From positions 1-12,985 of the IMG/VR virus record IMGVR_UViG_2645727562_000001: a DNA stretch of 12,985 bases, one strand, 5' to 3'. This document shows positions 2,141 to 9,366 of the stretch, one piece after another; within the stretch, counting starts at the first letter, position 1, and every line of letters starts with the position of its first letter. The translations under genes and the position numbers were made by a program. The notes under the pieces were generated by a model. It was not told the DNA's origin. It saw only the letters and a list, made by a program, of their open reading frames with translations, and searched no databases. The DNA is from a virus. Taxonomy: Duplodnaviria; Heunggongvirae; Uroviricota; Caudoviricetes.

Positions 2141-3577
2141 TCAGAATCCTCCTTTCTTCTTGGACTGCGGTTCCTCGCGTTCACGGCGGCGCATTTCAGC
2201 AGACTGTTGGTCTGTGTCATAAATAGCGCCATTTGCCTGAATGCAATACACCGTGCCGGTATTGCCATGACGATTGAGGCGAAGGATTAGTTCGGTTTCA
2301 CCAGGAGGAACGCTGTCATCAAAAGCGCCTTCACGATGGATCCCCACCCAATAATCGCAATCCTGTTCAATCTGCCCTGTATCTCGTGAGTCACTTGGTA
2401 ATGGGCGTTTATTGGTTCGGCTTTCCAGTGCGCGGTTAAGCTGTGTCAGAAGCACAACAACGCAATCAAGCTCTTTGGCAAGGTTCTTCAGTCCTTTGGT
2501 GATCATGCCGTAAGCAAGGTCGTTGCGATCGGCCTTCTCAGCGGTCATTAGTGTCAGGTAATCGACCAGAATCATGCCAACACATCCTTTTTCTCGCTTG
2601 ATTCGACGGCTTTCGCTGACGATTTGAGCCAGAGATAATCCCGGCGTGTCGTCGATGTAAAGCAGGTCGATTTCACTCAAGCGATTGGCTGTTTCGATCG
2701 CCCTGTTGAAGTCACCATCGTAATCACCCTGATAGCCGTCATCAGCGTCATTTGTCGCCAGAAGGTAAAAAATATTGGGGTTAACACCTGACTTTTGCCC
2801 TACCAGTTTTTCCAGTATCTGGTCACCTGGCATTTCAAGGCTGAACATCAGAGCGGGCTTTTTCTCATGCACTGCGCAGTTGATTGCCATCTGGCTGTAT
2901 AGCGTCGTTTTCCCCATCTTAGGGCGAGCGCCAATGACAAACAAAGAGCCTTTCACCAGACCTTTCGGTGACAGCATCCTGTCCAGCGATGGGATCCCTG
3001 TGCTCATTCCTCGTTGTTCGCCTGACGGGTCAAATCGCTTCTCAAGGTCGCTAACCCAGTCTTCCATGACCTCACCAAATGAGCGAAGGCCGCGACGCGA
3101 TCCGGTTTTTGCATGGTCTGTCAGTTGCGTGAAAATCGCCTGAATAGCTTCGTACTTCTGCGTTGCAGTCATTCCGTTGCGGGAATAGAGCAATTCCGTC
3201 GCTTCAGTCATGCGGTTGATGGCGTAGCGTTCCATTGCGGTTTCACGAACCTGCATTGCATAGGCAACGATGTTTGCTGCGCTTGGCGTGTTCTTTGCGA
3301 TCTCAGCGATATAAGCAAAACCGCCAACAGACTCCGTTAACGATTTACGCTCCAGTTCATCGAAAAGCGTCAGGCCATCTACTGGCTTTTGCTCCCGGTG
3401 CATTATGGTTATTTCTTCGAAAAGGATTTTGTGTGGCCGGCTGTAAAATGAATCAGGCTTCAGCATCGCCAGAACTTTCTGGACGCGCTCACTGCTGTCA
3501 TCATCCAGAAGCAATCCACCAATCACCGCCTGCTCTGCCTCGATGCTATGGGGCGGCGCATAAAAATTATCGGTCAT
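2141..3577 (-). CDS. DnaB-family replicative DNA helicase
   Basis: Product of about 479 aa with an N-terminal DnaB-like domain (IEAEQAVIGGLLLD), Walker A (GARPKMGKTT) and a Walker B-like motif (ILVDYLTLM). ATG at 3575-3577 with GAGGGTG upstream overlaps the O-like gene 3' end; the six-frame track extends to a GTG at 3592. Confidence 0.85.
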   Translation of the reverse strand: MTDNFYAPPHSIEAEQAVIGGLLLDDDSSERVQKVLAMLKPDSFYSRPHKILFEEITIMHREQKPVDGLTLFDELERKSLTESVGGFAYIAEIAKNTPSAANIVAYAMQVRETAMERYAINRMTEATELLYSRNGMTATQKYEAIQAIFTQLTDHAKTGSRRGLRSFGEVMEDWVSDLEKRFDPSGEQRGMSTGIPSLDRMLSPKGLVKGSLFVIGARPKMGKTTLYSQMAINCAVHEKKPALMFSLEMPGDQILEKLVGQKSGVNPNIFYLLATNDADDGYQGDYDGDFNRAIETANRLSEIDLLYIDDTPGLSLAQIVSESRRIKREKGCVGMILVDYLTLMTAEKADRNDLAYGMITKGLKNLAKELDCVVVLLTQLNRALESRTNKRPLPSDSRDTGQIEQDCDYWVGIHREGAFDDSVPPGETELILRLNRHGNTGTVYCIQANGAIYDTDQQSAEMRRREREEPQSKKKGGF

Positions 3578-4532
3578 CGTGTTCACCCTCACGAACTTTC
3601 AGGTAGGTATTATCGTTAAGCAGGAAATCAAATCCCTTTTTGTGCCAGACGGTTCCGCGTTGATGGTTTGGGCGCTCTTCGAACATCCATCGGCAATTTT
3701 CGCCTACGTAGCTCAAATAATTTCTCCAGTCCTGCATCGTGAACCCATGCCCGTCAAGCTGGCGGGTTATCACTCCGGCTTTGCGCCAGAACGTTCGGAT
3801 CTGGTTTTTACGCTTGTCATTCAGTGCGCGGATTCTTGGCGCTTCAGGAAGGATTTCGTGGTAAGCATCGACAACATCCTGACAGCTAACGGAAGGTTTT
3901 TTCTTGTCAGACTTTTTGTCTGCTGCGGTACTCTCTAATACGTCAGTATTAGAGATAATATTATTATATTCTTTATCTGTGGTAATTTGCTGGTAATCTG
4001 CTGGTACAGTATTGCTTGCAGGCATTGGTATTGCTGGCTTTGAGGTGGTAATTTGCTGGTAATCTGCTGGTACAGTATTGCTTGCAGGCATTGGTATTGC
4101 TGGCTTTGAGGTGGTAATTTGCTGGTAATCTGCTGGTACAAAATTTGACTGATAATCGTCATATTTCTCTACCGAGAAAACTGAGAATTTACCGTGTGAA
4201 ACCCAGTCAATCATGCCGAGTTTTTTGAACTTTCTAAGCAGGTACTGAACGCGATCTGGTTTGAGTCCTGTTTCAAACGCCAGAGAGTTTCTACCGCCAA
4301 GTAGCTTCCCTCTGCCTACCAGAATTTCTCCTGCGTCAGTCATTACATACTCAGGCGTATGCTTTGCTTTGAGGATTAAGTGAACCCACAGATGCGCAGC
4401 TTCTGCGTCCTTGTAAAACGGCACATCCATAATTTTACGGTGCAGCAAGGCATACCCCTTACCGCTGCTTTGATGCGGTTGTTGTAGCCTTCTGGCCTCT
4501 CTGGCTTCGGCTAGATTAGATATGTTACTCAT
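3567..4532 (-). CDS. Replication initiator, lambda O-like, with internal tandem 22-aa repeats
   Basis: 321-aa ORF in the O position, immediately upstream of and overlapping the helicase gene. The central region has three copies of [22 protein letters not shown] encoded by the 66-bp DNA repeats. The conserved-looking C-terminal domain fits phage replication initiators. Confidence 0.7.
3979..4139. repeat. About 2.4 tandem copies of a 66-bp unit containing TGCTGGTA-type sub-repeats; putative replication origin iterons
   Basis: Exact 66-bp periodicity (copies begin at 3979, 4045 and 4111). Each unit holds several TGCTGGTA-like short repeats. A strongly AT-rich stretch lies next to it at 3935-3978. 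Iterons followed by an AT-rich region inside the initiator gene is the lambda ori architecture. Confidence 0.6.
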
Positions 4533-5138: not shown

Positions 5139-5348
<210 letters not shown>

Positions 5349-5363
5349 TTAGTACATGCAACC

Positions 5364-5392
5364 ATTATCACCGCTAGAGGTAAAATAGTCAA
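5364..5392 (-). promoter_or_regulatory. pR promoter driving cro
   Basis: Minus-strand -35 TTGACT (reverse complement of 5387-5392) and -10 GATAAT (reverse complement of 5364-5369), overlapping OR1/OR2 exactly as in lambda. Confidence 0.85.
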
Positions 5393-5404
5393 CACGCACG
5401 GTGT

Positions 5405-5429
<25 letters not shown>
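5366..5429. promoter_or_regulatory. Right operator OR1-OR2-OR3, lambda type
   Basis: Three 17-bp operator half-palindromes: OR1 5366-5382 (TATCACCGCTAGAGGTA), OR2 5390-5406 (CAACACGCACGGTGTTA), OR3 5413-5429 (TATCCCTTGCGGTGATA). OR2 and OR3 match lambda; OR1 differs at one position from the canonical sequence as recalled. Confidence 0.9.
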
Positions 5430-6153
<724 letters not shown>

Positions 6154-6160
6154 CACGTAA

Positions 6161-6598
6161 ATGATTAAAGAACGTATTTCTTATATCATTCCGATTGCGA
6201 TGGATGAAGGCAACCCAGTAACTCCAGTTCTTATCTATGAAATGGATAAAGACTCCCATGAAGTGGATCTATCATTTGGCGCTTTTTTTATCGGCCTTAA
6301 GGCTACAAAAAAATATTCCATAGGCATTGAGGTTTTCAATGCTCAAGAAATACCGATACCAATTGACACAAAACTGTACTCCAACCATAAGTTTTTTACG
6401 GTAGCAGAAGCCAACGATGGAGAAACCATCGTATCAACTTCTATGAGAATTAACTTCCCAAGGGTGAAAATTATCAAGCCTGGGATATTCGAAGTTAGAG
6501 CATCACTGGTTAATCCTGATAAAGGCGAAGTAATTGATGTAAAAAGTTCGTTTTTTGACGTGAAGATAACAGGATCAGTTCGCGATGAGTTTAGATAA
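6161..6598 (+). CDS. Unknown soluble protein, 145 aa; first gene of the cargo cassette in the rexA position
   Basis: ORF starts 8 nt after the cI stop codon. Markedly AT-rich compared with cI. No transmembrane segment or recognisable catalytic motif; alternating hydrophobic pattern suggests a beta-rich fold. The downstream gene overlaps it by 14 nt. Confidence 0.6.
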   Translation: MIKERISYIIPIAMDEGNPVTPVLIYEMDKDSHEVDLSFGAFFIGLKATKKYSIGIEVFNAQEIPIPIDTKLYSNHKFFTVAEANDGETIVSTSMRINFPRVKIIKPGIFEVRASLVNPDKGEVIDVKSSFFDVKITGSVRDEFR

Positions 6599-6956
6599 CA
6601 AGGTTGCTCAGCTTCGTCCAAATCAAAACATATCTCGCCCAATTGGACACTATTCCACTGATGATGCATACTCACGGCATGGTGGAGGAAACGGCGGAGG
6701 TAACATGCTTGAGGCTAGAGTTGCAAAGCTAGAGTCTGATGTTGAATACATCAAGCGCGATCTCGCTGAAGTAAAGTCAGATATAAAATCTGTAGATTCT
6801 CGTCTGTCAGGTATTGAGACAAGCATTAGCTCAGCAAAAATCACCATCAAGGCATCTGCGGTCGTTGTCAGTTTCGTGTTCGCATTTTGCGCCTACATTT
6901 TTGGAAGTTATGTTTCCAAAATCCTTGATGCCTTAAACGGACTCGTTCTTAAGTAA
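6585..6956 (+). CDS. Coiled-coil protein with a single C-terminal transmembrane helix (XhlA-like architecture); second cargo gene in the rexB position
   Basis: The 123-aa ORF overlaps the upstream gene. An alternative ATG at 6705 is preceded by GGAGG at a 4-nt spacing and would give an 83-aa product starting MLEARVAKLESD. Features: Gly-rich low-complexity N-terminus (HGGGNGGGN), heptad-like coiled coil (LEARVAKLESDVEYIKRDLAEVKSDIKSVDSRLSGIE), then a hydrophobic anchor (ASAVVVSFVFAFCAYIFGSYV). Confidence 0.6.
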   Translation: MSLDNKVAQLRPNQNISRPIGHYSTDDAYSRHGGGNGGGNMLEARVAKLESDVEYIKRDLAEVKSDIKSVDSRLSGIETSISSAKITIKASAVVVSFVFAFCAYIFGSYVSKILDALNGLVLK

Positions 6957-6962
6957 CACACA

Positions 6963-6990
6963 ACCCGGCCTCAGCGCCGGGTTTTCTTTG
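6963..6990 (+). terminator. Rho-independent terminator of the cI-cargo operon (tImm-like)
   Basis: Stem ACCCGGC / GCCGGGT with a 6-nt loop, followed by TTTCTTTG, 7 nt after the cargo stop codon. The flanking sequence resembles the lambda region between rexB and OL as recalled. Confidence 0.6.
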
Positions 6991-7146
6991 CCTCACGATC
7001 CCCTTCACCCAATAACACATAACCAATTGTATTTATTTGAAAATTAATAGATACAACTCACTAAACATCGCAATTCAGATCTCTCGATCACCTCCCAAGC
7101 CACACACCCCTGCAAAAAAATAAATCTATATAAAAAACATACAGAT

Positions 7147-7209
7147 AACCATCTGCGGTGATAAATTATCTCTGGCGGTGTTGACATAAATACCACTGGC
7201 GGTGATACT
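7147..7209 (+). promoter_or_regulatory. Left operator OL3-OL2-OL1 with pL promoter, lambda type
   Basis: OL3 7147-7163 (AACCATCTGCGGTGATA), OL2 7167-7183 (TATCTCTGGCGGTGTTG), OL1 7191-7207 (TACCACTGGCGGTGATA). pL -35 TTGACA 7181-7186 and -10 GATACT 7204-7209. Matches the canonical lambda pL/OL sequence; pL reads rightward in this window. Confidence 0.92.
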
Positions 7210-7277
7210 AAACACATCAGCAGGACGCACTACTCACCAGGGCGGTGAATATACAACGATTCGAATATGAATCTACG

Positions 7278-7292
7278 GCGCTGACAAAGCGC
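7278..7292 (+). promoter_or_regulatory. nutL boxB hairpin (GCGCU-GACAA-AGCGC)
   Basis: Perfect 5-bp stem with 5-nt GACAA loop about 60 nt downstream of the pL start, matching the hairpin at nutR and the P22-type boxB as recalled. No convincing boxA is seen upstream. Confidence 0.55.
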
Positions 7293-7302
7293 AATAACCA
7301 AA

Positions 7303-7445
7303 GTGAACTTTGGGGTGTGGTGAAGGGTTCATGGACGGGAATATGTCGCACGTAAAGCGGCGAGGCCTGCGGGACTATTGCCGAATTGAAGTAGGCCGAA
7401 ACAGGTCGAAATGGGTCTCCCACCTACCACACCACCAAAGTTCAT
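7303..7445 (+). promoter_or_regulatory. Long-range stem in the N leader, adjacent to the N ribosome-binding site (RNase III-site analogue)
   Basis: TGAACTTTGGGGTGTGGTG (7303-7322) is complementary to CACCACACCACCAAAGTTCA (about 7425-7444) with one bulge, enclosing about 100 nt. The N Shine-Dalgarno GGAGG (7448-7452) lies directly 3' of the stem. Lambda has an analogous GGGGTGTGTG / CACACACCACC leader stem. Confidence 0.5.
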
Positions 7446-7457
7446 CAGGAGGTCTAT

Positions 7458-7841
7458 ATGACACGCAGAACTCAGTTCAAAGGCAATTCACGTTCTCGTC
7501 GTCGTGAGCGTTTAAAGGCAAAGGCATTAGCTAACGGCGTACTGGCCCGCGAAGAAGCAATAAGTTCAGAAGTATTACACCGCCCTACTCTAAGCAGAGC
7601 GCAGATTCAGGCTAAAGGTACTCACGAAACGCCTGAGCGCATAGAAGACGCTAAGCCAATTAAGTTCATGGCACAGGACGTGATCTGGCAACAGAAAGAA
7701 TACAGACGCAATCTGGAGAGAGCGGCCATTGTGTACGCGAATGAGTTTGGGCATAGGCAACCAGAAACTGGTGTATGTCTTCCAAATGTAGCTCTTTACG
7801 CGGCAGGCTACAGGAAATCAAAACAACTGACGGCGAGGTAA
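7458..7841 (+). CDS. N: N-family transcription antiterminator, non-lambda type
   Basis: 127-aa protein directly downstream of pL and nutL with GGAGG Shine-Dalgarno. N-terminal arginine-rich motif (GNSRSRRRERLKAKALA). C-terminus LPNVALYAAGYRKSKQLTAR resembles the P22 N-like (gp24) C-terminus as recalled. Not similar to lambda N. Confidence 0.85.
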   Translation: MTRRTQFKGNSRSRRRERLKAKALANGVLAREEAISSEVLHRPTLSRAQIQAKGTHETPERIEDAKPIKFMAQDVIWQQKEYRRNLERAAIVYANEFGHRQPETGVCLPNVALYAAGYRKSKQLTAR

Positions 7842-7843
7842 TT

Positions 7844-8236
7844 ATGGGTCAGGAAGAAAAATATGAGCTTAAAAAGCTCATTGAAGAAGACGCCATAGAA
7901 GAAATTGCAGCATTAACAACAGCTATAAATAATATTAGGTATGCGCTAAATACGCTTATCTCCTCATGCGACAAAAATAGCAGGGAATTTTTGATACTTG
8001 GCGCAGCTCTAGGAATAGTTGATGCGGCAACGCTTCACCTAATTACTCATGACGATATTCTTATTGAGCCGTATGAAACATTACTGCTTGTCAGGCAAAA
8101 AATGGCTGATGCCGCAGCAAATGGAGACCTTCAACTTTACATCGACTTAAGGAAAGTATTAAGGCGAATGGTCAGAACTGAAGGAGATATCCCACTGAGC
8201 GATGCTAAACAAGGCATACAAGCAAAGCTGGAATGA
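7844..8236 (+). CDS. Hypothetical helical protein, 130 aa, AT-rich, immediately downstream of N
   Basis: ATG at 7844, 2 nt after the N stop, preceded by GAGG (MGQEEKYELKKLIEE...). The supplied ORF 7775..8236 overlaps N in another frame, so the shorter start is preferred. AT-rich codon usage. No family recognised. Confidence 0.55.
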   Translation: MGQEEKYELKKLIEEDAIEEIAALTTAINNIRYALNTLISSCDKNSREFLILGAALGIVDAATLHLITHDDILIEPYETLLLVRQKMADAAANGDLQLYIDLRKVLRRMVRTEGDIPLSDAKQGIQAKLE

Positions 8237-8296
8237 CCATTATCCTGATGAAGTATCGAAAGCACAGTCAGCAATTAGCAAAGCTCTTGGGGAAGA

Positions 8297-8457
8297 ATGA
8301 TGAATAAGAAATACATTGTTGAAGTTATAGAGCGAGAAACGAAAGAAGTAATCAAACATTTCGAATTTGATAATTATAGAAAACCTGACCGCGTAGAAGA
8401 AGGATTGTTGCGACAAAGTAATCTCGAAAAATTTGATGTTGTCATGCGATGCGAATA
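8297..8457 (+). CDS. Unlisted small ORF, 53 aa
   Basis: GGGGAAGA then ATGATG at 8297: MMNKKYIVEVIERETKEVIKHFEFDNYRKPDRVEEGLLRQSNLEKFDVVMRCE. AT-rich. Below the track length cutoff. Confidence 0.35.
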
Positions 8458-8551
8458 AGCGCCTATAGCAGATTTACGAGTCTGCTATGTGAGCAATGTC
8501 GCTCGTAACTAAACAGGAGCCGACTTGTTCTGATTATTGGAAATCTTCTTT

Positions 8552-8578
8552 GCCCTCCAGTGTGAGGGCCTTTTTATA
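8552..8578 (+). terminator. Rho-independent terminator within the pL operon (tL1-like)
   Basis: Stem GCCCTC / GAGGGC with a 6-nt loop (8552-8569) followed by CTTTTTAT, lying between the small post-N genes and the cIII-like gene. Presumably read through by N-modified polymerase. Confidence 0.55.
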
Positions 8579-8641
8579 TGCATACCAATAACGCTTCACT
8601 CGAGGCGTTTTCGTTATGCAATCAAACAGAAGGAGCATCCT

Positions 8642-8812
8642 ATGCAACAGTTCGCTATTGCAGGGGCGGCATCGGTTCGCCCTTTCAACCCGATTTTATC
8701 GGTGCAGCATTCACGAAAAAATATTTTAACCGGAGCAGACTTTAAACAACCTCGCGTTAAGAGCTTGCTGGATCGTCTTGTTGAGTTTCTGAATCAAAAG
8801 GTACAGCCATGA
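8642..8812 (+). CDS. cIII: CIII-like protein (putative FtsH inhibitor), 56 aa
   Basis: Internal start of ORF 8537..8812 with AGGAG 7 nt upstream; the listed N-terminal extension spans the terminator. N-terminus MQQFAIAG resembles lambda CIII MQYAIAG, and there is an amphipathic segment (KSLLDRLVEFLNQ). Similarity beyond the N-terminus is weak. Confidence 0.5.
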   Translation: MQQFAIAGAASVRPFNPILSVQHSRKNILTGADFKQPRVKSLLDRLVEFLNQKVQP

Positions 8813-8973
8813 AAAAACCAACTTACGAGGAACTGGAAGAAGCCCTGAAAGAGCTTAGAAGAATGGCTTTCGCCAGACGCACTAACTCTCACAACTGCGG
8901 CCCATTTCAGTACTCTGATTTATGCGAGGACATCATTGAGGTAACTCAACTGATTAAGGTCGTTAAGCAATGA
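8809..8973 (+). CDS. Unlisted small ORF, 54 aa, in the kil position
   Basis: ATGA overlap with the cIII-like stop. Product MKKPTYEELEEALKELRRMAFARRTNSHNCGPFQYSDLCEDIIEVTQLIKVVKQ. No similarity to lambda Kil as recalled. Confidence 0.35.
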   Translation: MKKPTYEELEEALKELRRMAFARRTNSHNCGPFQYSDLCEDIIEVTQLIKVVKQ

Positions 8974-9077
8974 GCATTGCGGATACATGGTCAGACGAAG
9001 AATTCATTCGTCAGATGAAAGAAATGCTCAATCAGCACAAAGAACAGGAGAAAGATGATGATTCTGACTCTGAATGA
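8970..9077 (+). CDS. Unlisted very small acidic ORF, 35 aa
   Basis: ATGA overlap with the previous ORF (MSIADTWSDEEFIRQMKEMLNQHKEQEKDDDSDSE). Its 3' end overlaps the next gene's start region. Weak support. Confidence 0.2.
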   Translation: MSIADTWSDEEFIRQMKEMLNQHKEQEKDDDSDSE

Positions 9078-9366
9078 TAAGCGTGAAATATCGCAAATCA
9101 TCGCAAGTTTTACCGATGAAGATTACGAACGAATCAACAGTGAAGTTGATCGTCTCTGCAAACGTTGCGACCCAATAAGCGAAATGCTTCGCTCATATAA
9201 ACCAGATGAACACACTAAGGACGCTATCGACTGGCTGGAAGATGATGACTGTAACTATCAGGAAAAAGCCGCTGAATGGTTCTGGGATGCAATAACCGAA
9301 AGAGTTAAGGCTGAATATGCCTTCGCAATATTCAAACGCAGACATATTTATGGAGAAGCTGCATGA
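9055..9366 (+). CDS. Hypothetical protein, 103 aa
   Basis: AGGAG 5 nt upstream of ATGATG at 9055. Its stop overlaps the RecT start as ATGA. No family recognised. Confidence 0.5.
   Translation: MMILTLNDKREISQIIASFTDEDYERINSEVDRLCKRCDPISEMLRSYKPDEHTKDAIDWLEDDDCNYQEKAAEWFWDAITERVKAEYAFAIFKRRHIYGEAA

What the first reader, a model, noticed from the sequence alone, without database searches (positions are those of the whole stretch)
7844..8457. AT-rich accessory genes between N and the tL1-like terminator
Two AT-rich ORFs of no recognisable family (130 aa and an unlisted 53 aa) sit immediately after N and before the first terminator, so they would be expressed very early from pL. In lambda this position carries ral and sieB, which deal with host restriction and superinfecting phage. 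These are plausible anti-restriction, anti-defence or exclusion factors.
Basis: inference. Interest (0 to 1): 0.5.

Follow-up and report, generated by a model that had tools for sequence, protein, structure and literature searches.

The report
Two cargo genes after phage N
Two small, real but functionally uncharacterised accessory genes sit between the antiterminator gene N and a conserved small-RNA terminator in a lambda-like phage. This slot is known to swap cargo (often anti-restriction or exclusion genes), so the finding is fairly ordinary and leaves two testable candidates.

Summary
ORF1 (7844-8236, 130 aa, 40% GC) and ORF2 (8297/8300-8458, 53/52 aa, 33% GC) lie between N (7458-7841) and the first intrinsic terminator on the pL strand (8552-8569). 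Both are conserved and under purifying selection (dN/dS 0.16 and 0.10).

ORF1 is the HkaQ protein of phage HK620 (phrog_7374). Its last 12 residues come from a recombination. ORF2 is phrog_6949 and is normally the second gene of a translationally coupled pair. Only 33 codons of its usual partner survive here (8199-8300).

The "tL1-like" terminator is in fact lambda tL2a, the 3' end of the conserved Hfq-dependent sRNA PreS/LPR1 (8491-8579).

The N-to-PreS interval is a cassette-exchange hot spot with about 40 architectures in 87 loci. Ral occupies 40% of loci and SieB-type genes about 20%. HkaQ always lies directly after N (95 of 95 E. coli copies).

The parts
7181..7209 (+). pL promoter (TTGACA-17-GATACT) that drives the whole unit
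   Evidence: Promoter scan, 10 of 12 matches. Window 6962-7248 is 89% identical to the lambda tIMM/oL/pL region.
7226..7292 (+). nutL (boxA/boxB) of the HK97/933W-type N
   Evidence: 99.6% identity of 7217-7460 to phage 933W, whose record annotates nutL at the corresponding bases.
7458..7841 (+). N antiterminator (127 aa, HK97/933W/H-19B type). Its last 66 nt (7776-7841) are shared with the otherwise different 90-aa N of HK620 and form the left recombination anchor of the cargo slot.
   Evidence: Pfam N_peptide 1.7e-15. 99.5% nucleotide identity to HK97 N. HK620 homology starts at 7776.
7844..8236 (+). ORF1, an HkaQ-family protein (phrog_7374): 130 aa, pI 4.9, predicted all-helical. The core is 7844-8197. 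The last 12 codons (from about 8198) are read out of frame from a fragment of another gene.
8199..8300 (+). Remnant: the last 33 codons, ending at TGA 8298-8300, of a PF27050-type gene (mEp043_046/Sf101_0034 family) that normally precedes ORF2 with a TGATG overlap. It retains ORF2's native ribosome-binding region and contains a 32-codon mini-ORF (8202-8300).
   Evidence: 91% nucleotide identity to the 3' end of Sf101_0034. Translation gives AMLNKAYKQSWNDHYPDEVSKAQSAISKALGEE*.
8297..8458 (+). ORF2, phrog_6949 protein (52 aa from ATG 8300), with a predicted beta-beta-alpha-beta fold. It is always the last gene before PreS.
8464..8486 (+). Hairpin (TAGCAGA-loop-TCTGCTA) directly 5' of PreS. Other phages carry a different hairpin at the same position.
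   Evidence: Alignment A4. RNA fold of 8459-8582: -40.9 kcal/mol, z = -3.55.
8491..8579 (+). Homologue of the lambda Hfq-dependent sRNA PreS/LPR1, ending in terminator tL2a (stem 8552-8569 plus a T run).
   Evidence: 96.6% identity to lambda 33,923-34,011. About 85 nt are invariant in six phages. Identified as LPR1/PreS with tL2a in bioRxiv 10.1101/2024.10.31.621285. The homologous hairpin is annotated tL2A in HK620.
8590..8609 (+). Second intrinsic terminator (tL2B of the HK620 annotation)

Best explanation
Shown. The interval is the cargo of the hypervariable 'Ral' accessory region of lambdoid phages. Two conserved anchors bound it: the last 66 nt of N and the PreS sRNA with its tL2a terminator. 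Gene cassettes are exchanged between these anchors by recombination. In this phage the cargo is a recombinant of two cassettes. The first is hkaQ, which is always the first gene after N and starts 2 nt after the N stop codon. The second is the distal half of a 'partner + phrog_6949' pair, with the junction at about 8198. Both intact genes are under purifying selection, are dispensable (each is in about 1.7% of complete E. coli genomes), and lie upstream of the first good intrinsic terminator.

Inferred. Both genes are therefore made together with N as immediate-early products, without needing antitermination.

Inferred mechanism. They are small soluble binding proteins that neutralise a host or resident-prophage factor in the first minutes after infection or induction. 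For HkaQ (acidic, four to five helices, invariant IVDAATLHLI-(T/P)-HDD-x-L-(I/V)-EP motif) I consider a counter-defence or counter-exclusion role the single most likely function (about 0.35). For ORF2 a counter-defence role is less likely (about 0.15-0.2), and a role tied to its usual partner gene is about as likely. The confidence given here refers to the structural and evolutionary description plus 'early-expressed accessory binder', not to a specific target.
For: Anchors and mosaicism: HK97 and 933W share N (99.5% and 98.4%) and the terminator block (98% and 95.5%) with the window but carry gp45/L0079 in between. HK620 shares 7776-8198, Sf101 shares 8198-8302 and mEp043 shares 8269-8575.

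Census: 87 loci gave about 40 architectures and at least 15 gene families. ral was in 35 loci, orf28 in 40, gp45 in 13, the partner gene in 12, ORF2 in 9 and HkaQ in 5. The 'Ral' region is the second-ranked accessory region in Silas et al..

HkaQ is always adjacent to N. In complete E. coli genomes, 95 of 95 full copies retain the N 3' end. The 63%-identical P0003 follows N with the same 2-nt gap. The most distant homologue, P0020, follows an N-like protein with an arginine-rich motif.

Real genes: dN/dS 0.16 and 0.10. Rarity: HkaQ is in 96 and ORF2 in 90 of 5,426 genomes, and both together in 10.

Expression logic: pL at 7181-7209, and the first good + strand terminators at 8552 and 8590.

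Protein features: pI 4.86, helices 3-40, 47-68, 76-93 and 96-110. ORF2 is beta-beta-alpha-beta with pLDDT 77.

Against: The ORF2 homologue orf149 gave no reported phenotype in the Silas et al. screens.

HkaQ is only moderately acidic (net -7), unlike DNA mimics. Its AlphaFold2 model is of modest confidence (pLDDT 69, four-sequence alignment).

Guilt by location is weak, because most families in the slot are themselves uncharacterised. At least one slot resident (orf184) is known only as a trigger of an abortive-infection system.

In this window ORF2 has lost its usual upstream partner and HkaQ has a foreign tail, so either could be impaired.
Confidence: 0.55

Rival explanations
1. HkaQ is functionally tied to N. 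It would be an accessory factor that modulates antitermination or N stability (for example by shielding N from Lon), or otherwise tunes the early lysis-lysogeny decision, as cIII and Kil do further down the operon. Its fixed place as the first, translationally coupled gene after N would then reflect stoichiometric co-production.
For: HkaQ lies directly after N in 95 of 95 E. coli copies and in both distant homologues, across three N types. This includes a case (L014) where the N 3' end is not homologous, so the position is kept beyond the recombination anchor. The 2-nt TAAttATG junction has its Shine-Dalgarno inside N. PGAP names the protein 'antitermination N domain protein'.
Against: The same N works without HkaQ in HK97, 933W and many prophages. 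HkaQ has no arginine-rich motif, is acidic, and has no Pfam N_peptide or NCBIfam hit, so the PGAP name has no support that I could reproduce. The positional constancy can be explained by the N 3' end acting as the left recombination anchor.
Confidence: 0.15
2. One or both genes act for the lysogen. They would be superinfection-exclusion or abortive-infection factors, as SieB is, expressed from the prophage.
For: SieB-type genes occupy the same slot in about 20% of loci. In 66 of 96 E. coli genomes hkaQ is followed by the SieB-like hkaP, and that hkaP allele was never seen without hkaQ at megablast level. ORF1 has a hydrophobic stretch at residues 49-67 (Kyte-Doolittle 2.03). The authors' notes on the Silas screen mention unnamed superinfection-exclusion hits 'among others'.
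Against: Both ORFs point the same way as pL, which the repressor shuts off in a lysogen. Known SieB genes are on the opposite strand. Promoter-like sites in the region do not exceed chance (2 found, 4.0 expected). The hydrophobic helix carries the invariant D60 and H65, is less hydrophobic in P0020, and is modelled as a core helix. ORF2 is hydrophilic (GRAVY -0.84). There are no PADLOC hits. HkaP-like proteins occur without HkaQ next to lambda-type N (L085 and L087).
Confidence: 0.12
3. HkaQ is an antidote that lets the phage escape HkaP/SieB-type abortive infection, analogous to lambda and P22 Esc. The copy in this window would be an orphan antidote, useful against resident prophages.
For: There is an asymmetric association in complete E. 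coli genomes. The hkaP allele always comes with hkaQ (66 of 66), while hkaQ occurs without hkaP in 30 of 96. Immediate-early timing fits an antidote. The distant homologue P0020 is also followed by a convergent SieB-family gene (L015).
Against: Adjacent genes are co-inherited anyway, so the association may be plain linkage. HkaP-like proteins stand alone after lambda-type N in L085 and L087. Lambda and P22 encode Esc inside sieB itself (my own knowledge, not tested here).
Confidence: 0.1
4. In this particular genome the pair is recombination debris that no longer functions: HkaQ with a scrambled C-terminus, and ORF2 orphaned from its coupled partner.
For: The junction at about 8198 is out of frame. 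A 33-codon remnant survives, and ORF2 has lost translational coupling. PGAP does not call ORF2 in one near-identical prophage.
Against: The same recombinant is kept intact in 10 complete E. coli genomes and 9 further contigs, behind both the 90-aa and the 127-aa N. The HkaQ tail is variable in the family anyway. The remnant preserves ORF2's native ribosome-binding region. Neither ORF carries a stop codon or frameshift.
Confidence: 0.08

Closest known systems
HkaQ of Escherichia phage HK620 (AAK28865.1; also HK629_043 and the HK630 'HkaQ protein'); phrog_7374
   Same: The first 355-357 nt are 98.9-99.2% identical. The position is the same, 2 nt after N. It is the same protein family (E 1e-78).
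   Different: The HK620 protein is 120 aa and ends ...DIPLTK. The window protein is 130 aa with a foreign 12-residue tail (SDAKQGIQAKLE). HK620 has the convergent SieB-like hkaP downstream, whereas the window has ORF2. The function is unknown in both.
mEp043_045, the mEp213 homologue, and ATN92755.1 of phage APC_JM3.2 (UDP0149/orf149 of Silas et al.); phrog_6949
   Same: 51 of 52 residues are identical. It is likewise the last gene before the PreS/tL2a block.
   Different: In those phages it is translationally coupled (TGATG) to an intact 76-98-aa upstream gene. Here that gene is reduced to 33 codons.
Lambda orf28-ral (restriction alleviation) and lambda sieB
   Same: They occupy the same slot between N and PreS/tL2a in the same pL transcription unit, and are the most frequent occupants (ral in 35 of 87 loci).
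   Different: No sequence or predicted-fold similarity to either ORF. sieB is on the opposite strand and encodes a membrane protein. The window has no ral or sieB homologue.
HK97 gp45 / 933W L0079 (156 aa, unknown function)
   Same: A positional alternative between a nearly identical N and a nearly identical PreS terminator.
   Different: Unrelated sequence. It can also occur together with HkaQ (L141).
Lambda PreS/LPR1 sRNA with terminator tL2a (Silverman et al., bioRxiv 10.1101/2024.10.31.621285)
   Same: Window 8491-8579 is 96.6% identical over the whole roughly 88-nt RNA, including the GC hairpin and U tail.
   Different: This is not part of the two ORFs. Its expression and dnaN targeting were not tested here.
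T7 Ocr and ArdA (immediate-early DNA-mimic anti-restriction proteins)
   Same: Only the logic is shared: a small acidic protein made first after DNA entry.

Membership tests
HkaQ family (phrog_7374) | Full-length sequence match to the family profile and to HK620 HkaQ | tested here: met
   E 1e-78 over profile positions 1-120 of 120. 96-97% protein identity to the 120-aa forms, and 97.6% nucleotide identity over 7776-8198.
HkaQ family (phrog_7374) | Location directly 3' of an N-type antiterminator gene | tested here: met
   2-nt gap after N in the window. 95 of 95 E. coli copies. Also true of P0003 and P0020.
phrog_6949 (mEp043_045-like) | Full-length sequence match | tested here: met
   E 9.6e-40 over profile positions 1-52 of 52. 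81-98% identity to 8 homologues.
phrog_6949 (mEp043_045-like) | Second gene of a translationally coupled pair behind a PF27050-type gene | tested here: not met
   Only the last 33 codons of the partner remain (8199-8300), and upstream of them there is a stop codon in that frame. This is a feature of context, not of the protein.
Ral (restriction alleviation) | Sequence similarity to lambda Ral (66 aa) | tested here: not met
   No Pfam hit. tblastn with lambda and Sf101 Ral found nothing in the window slot.
Ral (restriction alleviation) | Relief of type I restriction in vivo | not testable with these tools
   Indirect evidence only. In the authors' notes for the MG1655/lambda experiment the named anti-restriction hits are ardA, ral and ocr, and the ORF2 homologue orf149 is not mentioned. 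HkaQ was not in that library.
SieB / superinfection exclusion | Pfam SieB domain, membrane segments, and expression in the lysogen | tested here: not met
   No Pfam or PADLOC hit. Same orientation as pL. No promoter signal above chance. The hydrophobic helix of ORF1 carries invariant charged residues. Expression in the lysogen was not testable.
N antitermination protein (the PGAP label 'antitermination N domain protein') | Arginine-rich RNA-binding motif and a Pfam N_peptide match | tested here: not met
   0 Pfam families at E <= 1 for ORF1. At E <= 10 the 148-aa form P0002 gave only a non-significant Exo70_N hit. 0 NCBIfam families. pI 4.86.
DNA-mimic anti-restriction proteins (Ocr, ArdA) | Very acidic surface (pI about 4) and a DNA-like charge pattern or fold | tested here: not met
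Known anti-phage defence systems (PADLOC) | Match to any defence-system component model | tested here: not met
   0 families for both ORFs at E <= 1.
Toxin-antitoxin-like two-gene cassette (partner gene + ORF2) | Two small coupled genes that always occur together, one of them toxic | tested here: inconclusive
PreS/LPR1 sRNA with tL2a (the flanking terminator) | Near-identity to the lambda 88-nt RNA, with a GC hairpin and U tail | tested here: met
   96.6% over 89 nt. About 85 invariant columns in six phages. Hairpin 8552-8569 followed by a T run.

The most novel reading that the evidence does not exclude
HkaQ founds a new family of immediate-early effectors that must be made together with N and before any terminator. 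It would either be a counter-defence or counter-exclusion protein against a system for which no inhibitor is known (HkaP/SieB-type abortive infection is one concrete candidate), or a previously unrecognised modulator of N-dependent antitermination. Its fixed first-after-N position across three N types would then be functional rather than a by-product of recombination anchors.
Probability: 0.3. Interest if true: 0.55.

Novelty: new member of a known kind. Interest (0 to 1): 0.3.

Why it matters
If HkaQ or ORF2 proved to be inhibitors of host or prophage immunity, they would add to the short list of counter-defence proteins of temperate coliphages. They would also be easy to study, because HK620, HK629 and HK630 are laboratory phages that carry hkaQ.

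The more solid outcome is a clean definition of a cassette-exchange locus. Its fixed anchors are the N 3' end and the PreS sRNA with tL2a. About 40 cargo architectures are seen between them. This gives a defined list of at least 15 uncharacterised early gene families to screen. It also corrects the terminator assignment: the cargo lies upstream of a functional sRNA, not of tL1.

Tried and rejected
1. Longer start for ORF1 (ATG 7775, 153 aa; database form P0002, 148 aa), or a -1 frameshift fusion of N to HkaQ at the A-run in tcAAAAc. Rejected. The extension is simply the alternative reading frame of the N 3' end and differs between N types. There is a GAGG Shine-Dalgarno before ATG 7844. The PHROG profile and the HK620 annotation start at MGQ. 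No N-HkaQ fusion protein appears among homologues.

2. ORF1 as a membrane protein. Kyte-Doolittle reaches 2.03 for residues 49-67, but D60 and H65 are invariant, P0020 is less hydrophobic there, and AlphaFold2 models the segment as its most confident helix. Left as unlikely. No transmembrane predictor was available.

3. Remote hits P0019 (1,082 aa) and P0022 (776 aa) in the exhaustive search. These are repetitive proteins (a eukaryote-like repeat and a Calx-beta-like repeat) matched on short motifs six times each, so I treat them as chance amplified by repetition.

5. An internal promoter for lysogenic expression: one 9-of-12 match at 7991-8019, not above the shuffle expectation.

6. Rfam found nothing in 6900-9100. 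PreS was identified from the literature instead.

7. hkaQ and hkaP as an obligate pair. Weakened by HkaP-like genes without HkaQ (L085 and L087) and by HkaQ paired with gp45, ORF2 or another small gene.

8. Literature. 'hkaQ' occurs only as a landmark for engineering HK620. No paper cites the protein accessions. Per-gene fitness values for orf149 were not in the supplements held.

9. The ORF at 8642-8812, which I thought looked like cIII, has no Pfam hit.

Full report
**Setting**

The window is the early region of a mosaic lambdoid phage or prophage, read so that pL transcription runs along the + strand.
- A lambda-type cI (5440-6153) is 98% identical to lambda over 5180-6149.
- Two genes unrelated to rex follow it (6161-6598 and 6585-6956), then tIMM (6962-6983).
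- pL is at 7181-7209 (TTGACA-17-GATACT).
- nutL is at about 7226-7292, by 99.6% identity to the annotated 933W site.
- N is at 7458-7841 (127 aa, Pfam N_peptide 1.7e-15, 99.5% nucleotide identity to HK97 N).

**Check of the observation**

ORF1 runs from ATG 7844 to TGA 8236 (130 aa). Its ATG is 2 nt after the N stop codon (TAAttATG), and a GAGG sits inside the end of N.

ORF2 is 8297-8458 (53 aa). Annotated homologues and the PHROG profile use the second ATG at 8300 (52 aa).

GC content is 40.2% and 32.7%, against 48.7% for N and 45.5% for the window.

On the + strand the first good intrinsic terminators after pL are 8552-8569 and 8590-8609. The scan also lists a weak 5-bp hairpin at 7760-7772 inside N, which I did not count. 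The description therefore holds.

Both ORFs are real genes:
- They match phrog_7374 (1e-78) and phrog_6949 (9.6e-40).
- Nei-Gojobori dN/dS is 0.16 for ORF1 against the 63%-identical P0003 (dS 1.65).
- dN/dS is 0.10 for ORF2 against the 81%-identical P0011 (dS 1.59).
- The ORFs on the - strand of the interval are antisense shadows of these two.

**What ORF1 is**

Its first 355-357 nt are 98.9-99.2% identical to hkaQ of HK620, HK629 and HK630. In those phages hkaQ also starts 2 nt after N. HK620 has a different, 90-aa N, and the homology block starts at 7776, inside the shared last 22 codons of N.

The family is very small:
- Five clusters were found among 5.8 billion proteins.
- In an exhaustive profile search of 1.84 billion representatives, the only additional full-length relative was a 93-aa protein, P0020. 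The other new hits were two short fragments (P0018, P0021) and two repetitive proteins matched on short motifs, which I discount.
- Across the family the motif IVDAATLHLI(T/P)HDDxL(I/V)EP is invariant, while the C-terminal tail is free to vary.

PGAP labels the protein 'antitermination N domain protein' in some genomes. I could not reproduce any basis for that name. The protein has no arginine-rich motif, its pI is 4.86, and it has no N_peptide hit, even in the 148-aa database form.

**The recombinant tail and the spacer**

Homology to hkaQ stops at 8198. From 8198 to 8302 the window is 91% identical to the 3' end of Sf101_0034. From 8269 onward it is 97% identical to mEp043.

In the frame that ends at TGA 8298-8300, the window encodes AMLNKAYKQSWNDHYPDEVSKAQSAISKALGEE*. 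This is the C-terminus of the Sf101_0034/mEp043_046 family and is preceded by a stop codon.

Two consequences follow. The last 12 residues of ORF1 are this fragment read in another frame. The 60-nt 'spacer' is a gene remnant that still carries ORF2's native ribosome-binding region.

The same recombinant is present in 10 complete E. coli genomes and in further contigs, behind both the 90-aa and the 127-aa N.

**What ORF2 is**

It is 51/52 identical to mEp043_045. The family is narrow, covering Escherichia, Atlantibacter and Cronobacter, with the most distant hit at 52% identity.

In every other context it is the second gene of a pair joined by a TGATG overlap. The first gene of the pair is 76-98 aa and carries Pfam PF27050 in the precomputed table. 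ORF2 is also always the last gene before the conserved terminator block.

A protein with one residue difference (ATN92755.1 of phage APC_JM3.2) was UDP0149 among the 200 accessory genes screened by Silas et al. (bioRxiv 10.1101/2023.04.06.535777, Supplementary File 3).
- It appears in none of the lists of counter-defence or conditional-lethal genes in that preprint or in the follow-up paper PMC12373910.
- The authors' notes for the MG1655/lambda experiment name only ardA, ral and ocr as anti-restriction hits.
- HkaQ was not in that library.

**The terminator**

Window 8491-8579 is 96.6% identical to lambda 33,923-34,011, which lies between ral and ea10. About 85 nt are invariant in lambda, HK620, HK97, mEp043, Sf101 and the window.

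Silverman et al. (bioRxiv 10.1101/2024.10.31.621285) describe exactly this element as LPR1/PreS. It is an Hfq-dependent sRNA of about 88 nt whose 3' end is terminator tL2a, and it raises translation of host dnaN. The HK620 record annotates the two homologous hairpins as tL2A and tL2B.

The window has no counterpart of the HK620 tL1, which lies inside hkaP.

Just 5' of PreS there is a hairpin (8464-8486). In the other phages it is replaced by a different hairpin at the same place. The whole 8459-8582 stretch folds with z = -3.55.

**The slot as a whole**

The exact 50-nt PreS core picked up 119 IMG/VR stretches. Together with loci fetched earlier, 87 loci had an N gene within reach. The N-to-PreS interval in these ranges from about 250 to 1,900 nt and shows about 40 different architectures built from at least 15 gene families.

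| Occupant | Loci (of 87) |
|---|---|
| orf28 | 40 |
| ral | 35 |
| HK97 gp45 | 13 |
| PF27050-type partner gene | 12 |
| ORF2 | 9 |
| HkaQ | 5 |
| Three SieB-type families on the opposite strand | about 18 in all |

Two further genes from the Silas library also occur in the slot. One is orf184, the trigger of gop-beta-cII. The other is orf47.

The partner gene is followed by one of three alternative small genes.

In complete E. coli genomes:
- HkaQ occurs in 96 of 5,426, and 95 of 95 full copies keep the N 3' end directly upstream.
- ORF2 occurs in 90.
- Downstream of HkaQ one finds hkaP (66 genomes), gp45, ORF2 or another small gene.
- The distant homologues P0003 and P0020 also lie directly after an N or N-like gene.

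Silas et al. independently ranked a 'Ral' region second among the accessory regions they inspected.

**Interpretation**

Shown: the interval is exchangeable cargo between two conserved anchors. It holds two intact, selected and dispensable genes plus a remnant. It is transcribed from pL ahead of any good intrinsic terminator.

Inferred: both proteins are immediate-early and N-independent. Rho-dependent termination cannot be assessed here, but ORF1 is coupled to N and the untranslated gaps are only about 60 and 30 nt.

Inferred with much less support: they are small binding proteins that neutralise a host or prophage factor.
- For HkaQ I put counter-defence or counter-exclusion at about 0.35, an N-linked regulatory role at about 0.15, and an exclusion role for the lysogen at about 0.1.
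- For ORF2 the screen result and its normal dependence on a partner gene lower counter-defence to about 0.15-0.2.
- The association of hkaQ with the SieB-like hkaP is suggestive of an antidote. At megablast level hkaP is never seen without hkaQ, while hkaQ occurs alone in 30 of 96 genomes. Simple linkage explains this equally well, and HkaP-like genes without HkaQ (L085 and L087) weaken the idea.

**Verdict**

Both gene families and the variability of the region were already on record: hkaQ since the HK620 genome annotation, both families in PHROGs, and the region in the Silas et al. screen.

What is added here:
- the recombinant anatomy of the interval;
- the strict adjacency of HkaQ to N;
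- the identification of the terminator as PreS/tL2a;
- a census of the slot.

Interest is modest.

Noticed in passing
window 8491-8579: Homologue of the lambda Hfq-dependent sRNA PreS/LPR1, which ends in terminator tL2a. It is 96.6% identical to lambda, and about 85 nt are invariant in six lambdoid phages. Rfam has no family for it.
   Followed up: yes
window 8464-8486: Hairpin directly 5' of PreS (TAGCAGA...TCTGCTA). Lambda, HK97, HK620 and Sf101 carry a different hairpin (GTGTATTCA...TGAATACAC) at the same position, with a shared ACGAG in the loop region. It may be a processing or stabilising element for PreS or for the upstream mRNA.
   Followed up: partly
window 8199-8300: A 33-codon 3' remnant of a PF27050-type gene (Sf101_0034/mEp043_046 family), fused out of frame to hkaQ. 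It contains a 32-codon mini-ORF (8202-8300) that ends at the TGATG overlap with ORF2.
   Followed up: yes
window 6161-6598 and 6585-6956: Two genes of unknown function (phrog_5893, and phrog_6136 with a coiled coil plus a C-terminal hydrophobic segment) replace rexA and rexB between a lambda-type cI and tIMM. They would be expressed in the lysogen and are candidates for a prophage defence module. There are only weak PADLOC hits (CorA-like 0.0039).
   Followed up: partly
window 7776-7841: The last 22 codons of N are shared at the nucleotide level between the 127-aa HK97-type N and the otherwise different 90-aa HK620-type N. This stretch acts as the left boundary for cargo exchange.
   Followed up: partly
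L005 3003-3395; L142 1803-2195 (E. coli RefSeq genomes): PGAP names HkaQ (WP_072658121.1) 'antitermination N domain protein', while the true N next to it is called 'hypothetical protein'. No Pfam or NCBIfam evidence for the name could be reproduced.
   Followed up: partly
L001 2503-3390 (HK620) searched against complete E. coli genomes: The SieB-like hkaP allele was never found without hkaQ (66 of 66 genomes), whereas hkaQ occurs without hkaP in 30 of 96. At the protein-family level, HkaP-like genes do occur alone (L085 and L087).
   Followed up: partly
L010 5369-5665; L011 2652-2948: Contigs carrying the 63%-identical HkaQ homologue have a second ORF further down the pL operon. The precomputed table assigns it to PF26859 (Phage_N_antitermin). 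The local Pfam copy does not reproduce the hit.
   Followed up: no
window 3935-4162 (inside the replication gene 3567-4532, - strand): Three tandem copies of a 22-residue unit ([22 protein letters not shown]) in the O-like replication protein. These are probably origin iterons inside the gene, as in lambda O.
   Followed up: no
window 7863-7881: Perfect 8-bp palindrome (ATGAGCTTaaaAAGCTCAT) seven codons into ORF1, flagged as a terminator-like site on the - strand. It is not conserved at the protein level in P0003, so it is probably chance.
   Followed up: no
window 8642-8812 and 8809-8973: Two small ORFs just after tL2a/tL2b, in the positions of cIII and kil. Neither has a Pfam hit. The second is phrog_32687 (unknown function).
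   Followed up: partly
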